Shown here piece after piece: positions 5,838 through 57,603 of a DNA stretch of 64,000 nucleotides (positions are counted from its first letter, which is position 1; each line of letters begins with the position of its first letter). The notes beneath the pieces are model-generated. The model was not told where the DNA came from. It did no database searches and saw only the letters and a list, made by a program, of their open reading frames with translations. Source of the DNA: Mustelus asterias (lineage: Eukaryota); the NCBI RefSeq assembly GCF_964213995.1, contig NC_135822.1:21328001-21392000 (forward strand), read 5' to 3'. The translations under genes and the position numbers were made by a program.

Positions 5838-8800
5838 GTGAGTCGCTGGGAGGAGAGGCCAGCGCTCCCGAGAGGGTTGGGCTTCTGAAGACGAAGGGGT
5901 GGAGGCAGTCACTCGGGGGCCGCAGGGGTCTCTCGTTGCTCCTTTCGCCGGTAAACTAGGTTTGGGAGGGCCCGAGGGCGAGCGGCAGGTTTGTTTCCTC
6001 TCAGGTACCGCCGCGGGGGAAGCAGGCAGCTGGTAATCCAAAAACGGGGCAGGAGAGGAGGGTCTCTTGTGAATTCACTGAAAACCCAACCAACTGACTG
6101 GAATTCGACAAAGTTCGAGTTAAACTTGAAACATTTGGGTAAGAGGAATACAGATAGGTAATAAATACCATAATGGTACAATTTTAATGGGGTGTTTGCA
6201 CATAGTCACCTGAAGAGTGGACGGGGTGCAACTGGTTATACAAGTAGGAGAGTCGATAAATCGAAGGCACACATTTATTGTCATTGGCGGAAATTTTTTT
6301 ATCAGCGAATTTTTATTCTGGAAATGCACAACCTGAAAAAGTTTGATAGAATAGAAGGAGGCCATTTGGCTCATCGAGCCTGCACTGACGACAATCTCAG
6401 CCAGGCCCTATCCCTATAACCCCACATATTTACTCTGCTAACCCCCCTGACATTAAGGGGCAATTTAACATGGCCAGTTAACCTAACCTGCACATCTTTG
6501 GCGTGTGGGAGAAAACTGGAGCACCTAAAGGAAACCCACGCAGACACGGGGAGAATGTGTAACCTCCACACACTAATCACTGAGCAGAAACTGATAGCCA
6601 AGTTCCGCACACATGAGGGCAGCCTCAACCGGGATCTTGGGTTCATGTCACACTATCAGTAACCCCCATGACTTGCCTGGATTTGCAAAATCTCACTAAC
6701 TTTCCTGTCTAGAAACAATACACATCTTTTTAACCAGTGCCTCATGCTCTCTCCACTCACATTGTCTGTACCTTTAAGACTTGATTAGCTGTAAAGATTC
6801 ACATTCCAATCATTATTCATGTAAATTGAGTTTGTGTCTTTGTGCCCTGTTTGTGATCAGAACTCCCACCCACCTGACGAAGGAACAGTGTTCCGAAAGC
6901 TAGTAGCTTTTGCTACCAAATAAACCTGTTGGACTTTAACCTGGTGTTGTTAGACTTCTTACTGTGTTAACCTCCACTCACACAGTGATCCAAGGCTGGA
7001 ATTGAATCCGGGTCCCTGGCGCTGTGAGGCAGCAGTGCTAACCACTGTGCTATCGTGCTGCCCTATTGGTGGAAGAAGATTCATTCAAACTTTTAAAAGG
7101 GAATTGGATAAATACTCGTAAGAATTGCAGGTCTATGGGACTAATTGGATGGCTCTTTCAAAGAGATGGCACAGGGGTGATGGGTTGAATGGTTTATTCT
7201 ATGTTGTGTCATAATATGTTTGAATTAATGCCATCGTCTCAATTCCTATTACAATTCTCTGTAGTAGTCGAATGCACTCTGCTTCTGTTTTTTTTAAGGC
7301 GACGTCAATATGTTGGAAAGCCTCGGTTTGCACATTTTGATGCACCTACACAGAATTCAAGGAAACTCATGGTTGCAACAGAGAATAACGTGATTGCCTC
7401 TCTCAACTTGAGGAATGGGGAAATCAGTGAGTATTGTCAACTTGACATTACTTTACTTAATTCTGCTCTGTTAGATTACAAACTGTCACTTATCTCAGCT
7501 TTGTTGTTTTTGTTTTAATTTGCAGTCTGGCGCCAGGTGGATAAAGAAGGTCCTGAGGGGAATGTGGACCTGATGTTGTTCAATGGACAGGGTGGGTGTA
7601 GTCCATTCAATTCTATTCAACTTGTATTGTTCGTATTAAGACTTTCTTAAAGCATTAGTGAAATCTATCAGTGACTCTGCAGGTTTTTTCTGCAGACAAT
7701 TCTTGCTTGAATTGGGAGATTATTATTTTATCCCATGTGTAAATCCCATGAACAACTAATGGCACTTTTTCTGGCCTAATAATCTTGAACCAGTTAATTC
7801 TGTTACATCCATGAAAGCAAATTACAGTAGAGCAAAATATATTTCCAAAATTCTGAACATTGAATTTTGCGCCCAATTGATCCCCTTGCAATTATGTCAT
7901 TAATTTATGTTGTGACCTCAGGAGGATGGAGAAGTAGCAAATAAAAATAAATTGGCAGAGGGAATTCGAGTCGAGTTTTATAGCCCTTAGGTCCATTGTG
8001 TCAAGCACCTATTTATTTTAATCCAATTTTCCAGTACTTGGACTGTAGCCATGTATGCCATGGTGTTTCTTTCAAGTGTTCATCTAAATGCTGTGAGGGA
8101 ATCTTGCCTCTACCACCCTTTCAGTGAGTTCCATATTTCCACCTCCCTCTGGGTGAAAAAAAATATTCTTCAGACGTAGGCCCTCTGGTTATTGAGCCCT
8201 TTGCCAAGAGGAAATGTTTCTTCCTGTATATGACCCTCATAATTTTGTGCCCCTCAATCAAGTCCGCTTCAGCCTTCACTGCTCTAAGGAAAACAACTCC
8301 AGCTTAACCAGCCTCTCTTCATAGCTGAAATGCTCCAGCCCAGGCCATCACATCCTTCCTATAGTGTGGCAACCAGAACTGCACACAGTACTCTACCTCT
8401 GGCCAAATTAGCATTTTATCCCGTTTCATCATAACTTCTCTACTCTTATATTCTATGCCTCCGCTAATAAAGGCAAGTATCCCATATGCCTTCTTAATCA
8501 CCTTAACTATCTGTCCTGCTGCCGCCTTCAGGGATCTGTGGTCCTCTAGCATCCTACCATTCATTGTGTTCTCTTGCCTTGTTAGTTCTTCCAAAATGCA
8601 TCATCTCTCACTTTTCAGGGTTAAATTCCATTGCCACTGTTCTGCCCAACCCATCTATATCGTTCTGTAATCTAAAGCTTTCCTCCTTGCTTGCCTTTAT
8701 AGGACGGGGCATAGAGTATAAAAGTTGGGGTCTGATGTTGCAGTTGTATAGAACGTTGGTTTGGCCGCATTTGGAATACTGCGTCCAGTTCTGGTCGCCA

Positions 8801-11800
8801 CACTACCAGAAGGACGTGGAGGCTTTAGAGAGAGTGCAGAGGAGGTTTACCAGGATGTTGCCTAGTATGGAAGGGCTTAGTTATGGGGAGAGATTGGGTA
8901 AACTGGGGTCGTTCTCACTGGAAAGACGGAGGATGAGGGGTGACCTAATAGAGGTGTATAAAATTATGAAAGGCATAGATAGGGTGAACAGTGGGAAGCT
9001 TTTTCCCAGGTTGGTGGTGATGTTCACAAGGGGTCATAGGTTCAAGGTGAGGGGGGGAGGTTTAACACGGCTATCAGAAGGACATATTTTACACACAGGG
9101 TGGTGGGGGCCTGGAATGCGCTGCCGGGCAAGGTGGTGGAGGCGGGCACACTGGGAACATTTAAGACTTATCTAGATAGCCACATGAATGGAGTGGGAAT
9201 GGAAGGATACAAAAGAATGGTCTAGTTTGGATCAGGGAGCGGCGCGGGCTTGGAGGGCCGAAGGGCCTGTTCCTGTGCTGTTTTGTTCTTTGTTCTTTGC
9301 TCTTGCTACTTACAACACCAATGTTCATGTCATCTGCAAACTTGCTGATCATGCCTCCTACTTTCACATCTAGATCAGTAATGTACACTACAAACAGCAA
9401 GGACCTAGCACAGACCCCTGTGGCACACCACTGGACACAGGCTTCCAGTCACAAAAACAACCCTTGACCATCCCCCTCTACTTCCTGCCGCTAAACCGAT
9501 TTTGGATCCAAATTGCCATGGATCCCATGGGCTTCTTCTTGACCAGTCTCCTGTGCAGGACCTTGTCAAAAGCCTTGCTGAAGTCCATGTGCAGTACGTC
9601 AACTGCACTGCCCTCATCTAAACACCTGGTCACCTCCTCGAAAAATTCAGTCAAATTTGTTAGACATGATCTCCCCTGACAAAGCCATGCTGTCTATCCT
9701 TGAGGACTTATCGAGATAGCCACATGAATGGAGTGGGAATGGAAGGATATCCTTGATTAGTCCTTGCTTCTCTAACTGGAGATTAATTCTGTCACTCAGA
9801 ATCTTTTCCAATAATTTCCCTACTAATGTTAGACACACAGGTCTGTAATTACCTGCTTTTTTTCTACTTCCCTTCTTGAATAATGGCAGTCCTTAAAACA
9901 TTAGCTGTCCTCCAATCCTGTGGCCAGAGAAGATTTGAAAATTAGCGTCAGAAGCAATCTCCTCCTTTGCCTCACACACCAGCCTAGGATACATCTTGCC
10001 TAGGTCTGGCCTGGGGATTTATTCAATTTTAAGGCTGCCAAAACTGCTAACACCTCCTCCCTCTCGATGCTAATCTATTCAATTATAGACAATCCCCCTT
10101 CCTGCTTTCTATACCTACATTGTCCTGCTCCATAGTGAACACAGGTGCAAAATGCTCATTTAATACCTCACCTTCTTTCGGCTGCATACTCAGATTGCCA
10201 CTTTGGTCCTTAATGGGCCATACTCTTTCCCTGGTTACCCACTTATCCTTCATATATTTATAAAATGCCGTGGGATTTTACTTTATTTTGGTCACCAGTG
10301 TTTTTTCATGCTCCCTCTTCACTCTTCTAATTTAGTTTTTTTATTCTAGAGGAATATAGCACTTTCTATATTTTTTGAGTTCCCTGTATCTGCCAGAAGT
10401 CTCCCCTTTTTCCTTATCCAATCCTTGACATCCAGGGTTTCCTGGACTTTTTACCTTTTAGGGAACATGTTGGTTCTGTACTCTTTCTATTTCCTTTTTG
10501 AATGACTCCCACTGCTGAGATGTGGATTTTCCCACAAGTAGCTGCTCCCGGCCACTTTGACTAGACCACGTCTTATCCTTTTAAAATCTGCCTTCCCTCA
10601 ATTCAGAAACCTTATTTCTGGCCATCTTTGTCCTTTTCCATAACTACCATAAAGCTTGCATCACGATCACCGAAATGCTCCCTCACTGACTCTTCTACCA
10701 CCAGCCCAGCTTCATTCCCTAAAATTAGGTGAAGTGCTGCTCCCTCTCTTGTAGGGCTTTCTATGTGCTCGCGTTAAAAAGCTGTCCTGGATACACTTTA
10801 AGAATTCGGCCCCTTCTAAACCTTTCACACCCCGCCTATCCCAATTAAAATTGGGGAAGTTGAGATCGCCTACTATTGTCACTTTATTGTTTTTACACTT
10901 TTCTGAGATTTGCCAACATATCTGCCCTTCTATCTCTTCCTGACTGTTTGGGGGCTTATAGTACACTCTCAGCAACAAGATTGGCCCTTATTGTTTTTAA
11001 ATTCCACCCATAGGTCCTCAATTGAGAAGTCTCTTAAGACATCATCCCTCACTGGTGCAGTAACTTACTCCTTGATCAATACCGTGATATCCATATCGTC
11101 ATGCGGTGTCCGAGGACATTGTTGAGATCTTCTGTGCTCATTGGGCACCCGCAGGGGCTTGGGTGTATTATTGACCCCTTTACCCACATTTTGGTTTGAT
11201 GTTTTAAGTTTCCTTTCTGATTTGGCTTCTGTCTCGGGAGGTTCCCTTTTTGGGGGCTGTCCCTTTTAATTTGTCCCTCAGTTAATTGGATTTAGTTTAT
11301 TTGTTTAGTCAAAAAGATTGACAGCCATATCTCACCTGAAGATTCTGTACCCTGGAATATTGAGCTGCCAGTCCTGTCCCTCCCTCAACCATGTCTCTGT
11401 AATATCATATCCCCATGTGTTAATCAACGCCCTCTGTTCATCTGCCTTACCTACAAAATTCCTTGCATTAAAATAAATGCCACCCAGTCTTGCCATATTC
11501 CTTTGTGCCTTGACATGTCTATGTATGTTATGCCTTACAGACTGACTTGGTTTTTCTTCTATATTTAGTTGTGCATCACCCACTACTGTACTTGCACTCC
11601 ATAACCCATCCCCCTGCAAAAGTAGTTTAAACCCCCTGCCAACAGCACTAACAAACCTCCCCGCAAGGATGTTGGTCCCATTCCGGTTTAACCTGCTCGG
11701 TCCAATACTGAATTAACTTAGGTTTAAAAGTAGTACAGCAGCATTACTCTCAAAAGCAAGAATGAACAAGTTCCATTGCACCGTAATGGTAATTAATTTA

Positions 11801-57566: not shown

Positions 57567-57603
57567 CCATCTGACGAAGGAGCTCTGCTCCGAAAGCTTA
57601 TGG
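57567..57603 (+). ncRNA. Minimal type-I hammerhead ribozyme motif (sense in UBR4 intron 1)
   Basis: CCAU CUGACGA A GGAGC ucu GCUCC GAAA GC UU AUGG. Confidence 0.72.

What the first reader, a model, noticed from the sequence alone, without database searches (positions are those of the whole stretch)
6870..57603. Six minimal hammerhead ribozyme motifs with compensatory stem changes in Penelope-like repeats
Seen: the motif stemI-CUGANGA-A-stemII-GAAA-GC-UH-stemI' occurs at 6870(+), 26845(-), 44141(-), 44791(+), 57012(-) and 57567(+). The catalytic core is invariant apart from N7 and H. Stems co-vary: stem II is GGAAC/GUUCC, GGGGCU/AGCUCC or GGAGC/GCUCC; stem I is CCAC/GUGG or CCAU/AUGG. Stem III is reduced to a palindrome (AAGCUU or AGCU). 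Established: Penelope-like elements carry minimal type-I hammerheads in their pseudo-LTRs, thought to cleave as dimers via that palindrome. Inference: at least three ribozyme-bearing PLE subfamilies were recently mobile in this genome, and the structure was under selection.
Basis: partly seen in the sequence, partly recalled or inferred. Interest (0 to 1): 0.75.

Follow-up and report, generated by a model that had tools for sequence, protein, structure and literature searches.

The report
Penelope hammerheads with fossil cut marks
The six motifs are real copies of the small hammerhead RNA motif already known from Penelope-type jumping genes; the fresh point is that a few percent of the youngest subfamily's genomic copies begin exactly at the predicted cut site, which likely records the ribozyme cutting in living cells.

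Summary
All six motifs are present, but they are four insertions, not six: two are inverted pairs inside 12-bp target duplications. Stem I is broken at 6870 and only CAC/GUG in register at 44141/44791. They sit in the pseudo-LTRs of a Neptune/Nematis-type Penelope element (RT, CX4CxxC linker, GIY-YIG) with about 95,000 exact motif copies in this 3.7-Gb genome. Minimal hammerheads in such elements are published (PMC4209133). Covariation is real but thin: 2 of 9 pairs. 40 of 40 sampled are true truncations, and in 36 of 37 the partner arm stops within 3 nt of the cut or downstream of it. The AUGG subfamily shows no such peak, and about 95% of arms read through the site. Cleavage in vivo is inferred, not shown. 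Earlier scan notes reported this footprint on other DNA of this genome; poly(A) joined to the cut site is an added line.

The parts
6570..6967 (+). 5'-truncated PLE arm (end of GIY-YIG frame plus pLTR, short 'A' end, no tail), inserted in a SINE-like repeat; duplication TAACCTCCAC at 6560-6569 and 6968-6977
6863..6910 (+). Minimal hammerhead, GUGG subfamily (stem II GGAAC/GUUCC); stem I broken (GUAG), predicted not to fold
26790..26902 (-). 113-nt PLE stub: A-end arm starting just 5' of the hammerhead plus a 9-nt inverted piece resembling the tail; 13-bp duplications at 26777-26789 and 26903-26915
26841..26890 (-). Minimal hammerhead, GUGG subfamily, stems I and II intact
44047..44889 (.). One inverted (head-to-head) PLE insertion, GUGUGG subfamily: B arm with tail on - strand, A arm on + strand; 12-bp duplications at 44035-44046 and 44890-44901
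44139..44188 (-). Minimal hammerhead of the B arm; predicted cut between 44147 and 44146
44784..44833 (+). Minimal hammerhead of the A arm; predicted cut between 44825 and 44826, the position at which sister copies begin
44844..44849 (+). AATAAA; poly(A) is joined at 44862-44864 in contigs of runs X14 and X15
56921..57661 (.). One inverted PLE insertion, AUGG subfamily, interrupting a LINE reverse-transcriptase frame; 12-bp duplications at 56909-56920 and 57662-57673
57008..57055 (-). Minimal hammerhead of the B arm (stem I CCAU/AUGG, stem II GGAGC/GCUCC)
57260..57490 (-). C-terminal end of the GIY-YIG endonuclease frame in the B arm, with a short tandem duplication
57560..57607 (+). Minimal hammerhead of the A arm; predicted cut between 57599 and 57600

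Best explanation
The six motifs are minimal type-I hammerheads carried in the pseudo-LTRs of four truncated insertions of a very abundant Neptune/Nematis-type Penelope retroelement, and the ribozyme likely cuts only a minority of the element's RNAs. Shown: each two-armed insertion has one short (A) and one tailed (B) end about 35 nt apart in the RNA, lies in a duplication of mostly 12-13 bp, and takes both arms from the same subfamily; in the youngest subfamily a few percent of arms begin exactly 3' of H17. Inferred: the endonuclease makes a staggered cut, and both nicks prime reverse transcription at two internal sites (A and B) on one RNA or one coupled RNA pair. The two cDNAs are then joined head to head, bluntly or by microhomology. 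When the RNA had already been cut by the hammerhead, both cDNAs run off its 5' end, giving about 160-200-nt palindromic stubs that begin at the scissile bond. Cleavage is therefore not needed for insertion; it likely processes read-through transcripts just upstream of the next reading frame. Dimer formation through the AGCU palindrome is taken from the literature and untested here.
For: PLE identity. Copy number: 94,788 exact motifs, reversed-pattern control 0; 159,672 downstream boxes. Ends: 38 of 61 candidate opposite-strand pairs share a duplication of at least 9 bp; 36 are A+B, 2 are intermediate+B, none A+A or B+B. Arm lengths correlate (rho 0.70, n=38; 13 of 33 within 12 nt against 4.5 in shuffles). 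Footprint: 1,614 at the cut against 425 at -2 with equal two-base filters; 32 at +1 with a ninefold stricter filter, about 290 equivalent; 45,664 read through. By-eye tally of the first 100 of 987 hits: 50/15/15/8/12 at 0 to -4 against about 15/19/20/20/27 if flat. 40 of 40 listed loci fetched without regard to flanking letters are true truncations; the partner arm starts at or 3' of the cut in 32 of 37, within 3 nt 5' in 4, further 5' in 1. The target duplication abuts the cut directly in L067 and L075. Poly(A)-to-cut joints: 3 contigs in X14, 4 in X15. Two adjacent internal start sites and extension of both strands were shown in vitro for an anole PLE (PMC11167929, main text read).
Against: No cleavage assay and no raw RNA reads. 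The AUGG/GUGGCA group shows no excess at 0 (11 of 100, about 11 expected); its excess at +1 (27 against 12) is partly microhomology. Pooled over subfamilies the break profile from -4 to +6 looked roughly flat (by eye). About 95% of the youngest subfamily's arms pass the site. In PMC11167929 ribozyme mutants inserted normally and no RNA reads ended at the cut. L057 has 6 shared-variant differences between its arms, and 5 of 38 pairs have 2 or more, so one template is not universal. X14 and X15 are one sample, and no poly(A) joint was listed for X1-X4, X16 or X17. Capture corrections assume random flanking letters, which junctions are not.
Confidence: 0.75

Rival explanations
1. The pile-up is a reverse-transcriptase stall or a DNA-joining hotspot at the edge of stem I, and the hammerhead is a passenger that does not cut in vivo.
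For: The cut site is by definition the edge of stem I. Only the subfamily with the most stable stems shows the peak (constrained fold -11.8 and -12.7 against -10.3 and -11.3 kcal/mol, a small difference). In vitro rates of metazoan minimal hammerheads are low (PMC4209133).
Against: The peak is one base wide and lies after, not before, the stem-I strand that RT must open. Junction partners differ freely (target DNA, partner arm, foreign sequence, poly(A)), so no shared microhomology explains it. The partner arm is almost never longer than the cut, which points to a physical RNA end.
Confidence: 0.15
2. The RNA end at this base is a transcription start site of an internal promoter of this subfamily.
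For: pLTRs hold promoters (PMC6765202, passages). A start site would limit both arms in the same way.
Against: It would have to coincide with the scissile bond by chance. The letter 5' of the break is not dominated by G (by eye 18 G, 17 A, 15 C, 15 T among 65 lines), whereas a copied cap would be expected to give G (recalled from LINE-1 work).
Confidence: 0.06
3. Cleavage is general but followed by ligation into circular RNA, which is the true template, so read-through arms come from circles (model of PMC4209133).
For: A re-ligated junction restores the motif and cannot be told from uncut RNA in DNA copies; it would explain the 95% read-through.
Against: No direct sign. An AATAAA with poly(A) added about 37 nt after the cut suggests linear polyadenylated RNAs exist. 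Unprocessed RNA was the main substrate in vitro (PMC11167929). This rival concerns the read-through majority and is compatible with the footprint.
Confidence: 0.15
4. The two arms come from two separate RNAs held by a dimeric protein and cleaved together as a dimeric ribozyme, not from one RNA.
For: Minimal hammerheads need a partner (PMC4209133); the anole protein is predicted to be a dimer (PMC11167929); L057 has arms from different variants.
Against: Both arms belong to the same stem-I subfamily in all 37 pairs that could be typed, and 33 of 38 pairs have fewer than 2 shared-variant differences. The strict A+B pairing is simplest if the second primer uses the still single-stranded tail of the same RNA.
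Confidence: 0.25

Closest known systems
Minimal hammerheads (min-HHR) of metazoan PLE pseudo-LTRs (Cervera and De la Pena 2014, PMC4209133; abstract, results, discussion and part of methods read)
   Same: Type I, no real helix III, palindromic 15.2-16.2, extra base between A9 and G10.1, G10.1-C11.1 pair, several consensus families per genome, opposite-strand pairs 100-700 bp apart.
   Different: About 95,000 exact copies against about 4,000 (coelacanth) and 9,000 (Xenopus) reported there, by a different search method; helix II is 5-6 bp; 5' ends piled at the cut are not described in the parts read.
EN+ Penelope-like elements, Neptune/Nematis type (PMC8557442 and PMC3846280, passages)
   Same: RT then C-terminal GIY-YIG with CX2-5CxxC linker; 5' truncation; inverted adjacent copy; 30-40-bp tail at one end; short target duplications.
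   Different: Duplications of mostly 12-13 bp against 8-10 bp in the rotifer examples; strict A+B pairing and coupled arm lengths are quantified here; no tree was built to separate Neptune from Nematis.
Poseidon element of Anolis (PAc), in vitro (PMC11167929; main text and methods read, supplements not seen)
   Same: Two adjacent internal start sites bounding the tail; both target strands extended; hammerhead dispensable for insertion.
   Different: There the motif overlaps the start codon and no RNA ends were found at the cut; here it lies in the 3' non-coding part of the arm and DNA copies begin at the cut.
Non-LTR retrozymes (bioRxiv 10.64898/2026.07.22.740005; abstract to discussion read, supplements closed)
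   Same: Type-I hammerheads derived from PLE pseudo-LTRs; one chondrichthyan genome was included there.
   Different: The copies here are dispersed truncated or inverted insertions with target duplications, not head-to-tail arrays.

Membership tests
Minimal type-I hammerhead (PMC4209133) | Core CUGANGA and GAAA, U16.1, H17 | tested here: met
   6 of 6 window copies
Minimal type-I hammerhead (PMC4209133) | Helix II with G10.1-C11.1 and an unpaired base after A9 | tested here: met
   20 of 20 aligned copies keep the first two G-C pairs
Minimal type-I hammerhead (PMC4209133) | Helix I of at least 3-4 bp | tested here: met
   5 of 6 window copies fold with stems I and II as minimum-energy structure; 6870 does not
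Minimal type-I hammerhead (PMC4209133) | Palindromic 15.1-16.1 segment (AGCU) in place of helix III | tested here: met
   invariant in 20 of 20 aligned copies, which were picked with a pattern requiring it
Minimal type-I hammerhead (PMC4209133) | Covariation beyond relatedness | tested here: inconclusive
   2 of 9 pairs change on both sides; 94% of cells paired against 24-45% when slid; copies are related and hand-picked
Minimal type-I hammerhead (PMC4209133) | Self-cleavage 3' of H17, as a dimer | not testable with these tools
   only the indirect genomic footprint
Rfam hammerhead families | Covariance-model match | tested here: not met
   no hammerhead hit at E up to 5; not filed under an Rfam family
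EN+ Penelope-like element | RT followed by C-terminal GIY-YIG in one frame | tested here: met
   L026 535-aa frame: RVT_1 E 4e-8 above cut-off, GIY-YIG E 6e-4 just below cut-off; window arms carry the frame's end
EN+ Penelope-like element | pLTR with hammerhead, inverted 5'-truncated copy, one-sided tail, target duplication | tested here: met
EN+ Penelope-like element | Full-length partial tandem with the start codon after the tail | tested here: inconclusive
   none of 8 extended loci held a complete 5' end
Neptune/Nematis clades | CX2-5CxxC linker between RT and EN | tested here: met
   CHSNLCKTC in L026, L012, L008; definition from PMC8557442
Neptune clade proper | RT phylogeny with named references | not tested
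   no reference sequences were fetched
Non-LTR retrozyme | Head-to-tail tandem units each with a hammerhead | tested here: not met
   window copies are dispersed, single or head-to-head

The most novel reading that the evidence does not exclude
The genome holds well over a thousand fossil records of a Penelope minimal hammerhead cutting in germ-line cells: insertions whose two arms were both copied up to the 5' end of a ribozyme-cut RNA, sometimes followed by a jump onto a poly(A) tail. Cutting is seen only in the youngest subfamily, so subfamilies of one element differ in ribozyme activity in vivo, and the same copies show that these elements integrate by priming from both target strands at two fixed RNA sites.
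Probability: 0.65. Interest if true: 0.7.

Novelty: new member of a known kind. Interest (0 to 1): 0.5.

Why it matters
The role of hammerheads in endonuclease-bearing Penelope elements is called unclear in PMC8557442, and PMC11167929 found no RNA ends at the cut. A single-base pile-up of insertion ends at the predicted scissile bond would be indirect in vivo evidence of cleavage, and it names a natural pair (GUGUGG positive, AUGG negative) for a simple assay. The strict A+B ends and coupled arm lengths constrain how PLEs integrate. The copy number (about 95,000 exact motifs) is roughly ten times the vertebrate counts in PMC4209133. The six window motifs themselves are ordinary members of a described class.

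Tried and rejected
Rfam scan: no hammerhead. A seventh descriptor hit at 51721 does not fold as a hammerhead and lacks the pLTR context: rejected as chance. Pooled test for a pile-up at the cut over all subfamilies (tallies by eye from the first 100 lines each): about 0.9, 0.8 and 0.5% of arms per base for -4..+6, +5..+13 and -20..-8, with no sharp peak; only the subfamily-specific test showed one. The GUGG subfamily was not tested on its own beyond the GUGGCA copies. The idea that the AA before the cut is poly(A): rejected for the genome sample (0 of 40 loci; it comes mostly from the partner arm). Random two-template pairing: not supported. Search for a full-length source copy: none in 8 extended loci. 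Expression: no RNA holder listed; all 8 runs laid are contigs and cannot show starts or ends. Unconstrained co-folding gave stem-swapped dimers, not the catalytic dimer, so it says nothing on activity. The dimer-cleavage paper of Lunse et al. (PMC5785218) could not be read and is known only through PMC6765202 passages. Literature searches found no paper on hammerheads in shark PLEs or on insertion ends at the cut; subscription papers, Repbase and unseen supplements may hold either.
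Full report
Observation. All six motifs are at the stated places and strands. A relaxed minimal-hammerhead descriptor gives 7 hits in the window against 0.02 in Markov controls; the seventh (51721) does not fold as a hammerhead and was dropped. Rfam has no hammerhead match. Stem II is as described. Stem I is CCAC/GUGG at 26845 and CCAU/AUGG at 57012 and 57567. 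It is broken at 6870 (GUAG) and is CAC/GUG plus an imperfect extension at 44141 and 44791. Five of the six copies fold with stems I and II as the minimum-energy structure. The six motifs belong to four insertions: 44047-44889 and 56921-57661 are head-to-head pairs in 12-bp duplications, 26790-26902 is a stub and 6570-6967 a single arm.

What carries them. The window lies at G000:C22:21328001-21392000 in a 3.68-Gb genome. I read it as shark-like from recall of its SINEs and from earlier scan notes; no call names it. The pattern CTGANGAAGG-N6-14-CCGAAAGCTW occurs 94,788 times, with a reversed-pattern control of 0, and the box downstream 159,672 times. I fetched 60 of the 68 regions covering the first 100 listed hits, which with the window gave 132 arms. 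[quoted passage not shown] That is the Neptune/Nematis layout of PMC8557442 (passages). No complete 5' end was found in 8 extended loci.

Covariation. On 20 hand-picked representative copies, 94% of cells pair, against 24-45% when partners are slid. Only two pairs change on both sides (C-G to U-A in stem I, G-C to A-U in stem II), and 157 of 500 shuffles reach two. This fits selection in the master lineages but does not prove it. Arm-to-arm differences rank the subfamilies GUGUGG 1.15%, AUGG 3.1%, GUGG 5.4%.

Insertion anatomy. Arms end at two places about 35 nt apart, A and B. Of 61 candidate opposite-strand pairs, 38 share a duplication of 9-16 bp (25 of them 12 or 13). 36 are A+B, 2 are intermediate+B, and none is A+A or B+B. 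Arm lengths correlate (rho 0.70, with lengths capped at 700; 13 of 33 within 12 nt against 4.5 in shuffles). Arms share their stem-I subfamily in all 37 typable pairs, but 5 of 38 pairs differ at two or more shared variant sites, L057 at six. Inverted copies with a one-sided tail are published (PMC3846280, PMC8557442, passages), and two adjacent internal start sites were shown in vitro (PMC11167929). Priming from both nicks on one RNA is my inference.

Footprint at the cut. Pooled over subfamilies, 5' breaks looked roughly flat around the site (by-eye tallies). Earlier scan notes on other DNA of this genome claimed a footprint in one young branch, so I tested subfamilies apart. For GUGUGG, the first 100 of 987 hits fall 50/15/15/8/12 at positions 0 to -4 by eye, against about 15/19/20/20/27 if flat; some lines are both strands of one locus. 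Whole-genome counts with equal two-base filters are 1,614 at the cut and 425 at -2. At +1 there are 32 with a ninefold stricter filter, and 45,664 arms read through. That puts about 2.5-4.5% of arms at the cut. I fetched 40 loci from the first 43 lines, leaving out three lines from two loci already fetched. All 40 are true truncations with no hammerhead upstream. In the 37 with a recognisable partner arm, it starts at or 3' of the cut in 32, within 3 nt 5' in 4 and further 5' in 1. Among 20 further chosen loci, two have the target duplication abutting the cut and several are perfect palindromes centred on it. Contigs of runs X14 and X15 (one sample, kind not on record) join poly(A), added 13-15 nt after the AATAAA, to exactly 44826 (3 and 4 listed contigs). 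No such joint was listed for the other six runs. The AUGG/GUGGCA group shows no excess at 0 (11 of 100) and an excess at +1 (27) that microhomology partly explains.

Mechanism. Shown: the motifs, the element, the A+B ends, the duplications and the single-base pile-up in one subfamily. Inferred: a staggered cut primes copying from sites A and B; the two cDNAs are joined head to head; a minority of template RNAs had been cut by the hammerhead, so both cDNAs ran off the same end; RT sometimes jumped from that end onto a poly(A) tail. Cleavage is not required for insertion, in line with PMC11167929. The rivals are an RT stall at stem I, a start site, circular templates and two coupled RNAs; none is excluded without an assay.

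Novelty and verdict. Minimal hammerheads in PLE pseudo-LTRs, subfamily variation and opposite-strand pairs are in PMC4209133, so the finding as written is a new member of a known kind. My searches found no report of insertion ends at the cut or of these elements' hammerheads in sharks, though this scan has noted the footprint before. Notes on other genomes report copies starting before the motif rather than at the cut (unchecked), which fits activity limited to some subfamilies. Interest 0.5: ordinary as a motif, but it makes the open question of in vivo cleavage directly testable with a natural positive and negative pair.

Noticed in passing
window 44862-44864 to 44826, in runs X14 and X15: Contigs join a short poly(A) added after the pLTR AATAAA directly to the predicted cut site; could be RT jumping from a cut RNA end onto a poly(A) tail. 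Not counted in G000.
   Followed up: partly
window 44844-44889: The poly(A) site lies between the hammerhead and the priming sites A and B, so templates must be transcripts that run past it.
   Followed up: no
L057:1440-2543: One insertion with an 11-bp duplication whose arms differ at 6 shared variant sites (about 6% overall): two templates or later gene conversion.
   Followed up: partly
L073, L065, L094, L112: Arms starting at or next to the cut enclose tens to about 150 bases of unrelated sequence between them.
   Followed up: no
window 55804-58077: LINE reverse-transcriptase copy (RTE-like by recall) interrupted by the 56921-57661 insertion.
   Followed up: partly
window 57278-57322: Short tandem duplication inside the B arm at the end of the endonuclease frame.
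   Followed up: no
window 2538-3939, 8507-9175, 16337-16888, 62052-62687: CR1-like LINE fragments with long open frames (family name recalled); many SINE-like repeats throughout the window.
   Followed up: no
window 22137-22477 and 30104-30448: Inverted pair of a 340-nt repeat about 91% alike and 7.6 kb apart.
   Followed up: no
L003, L017, L028, L030, L060: A further, more diverged subfamily with a shorter 3' side (GAAAGCUYGUGCUA), including H17 = C.
   Followed up: no
window 51721: CUGAUGA...GAAA descriptor hit that does not fold as a hammerhead; treated as chance.
   Followed up: yes
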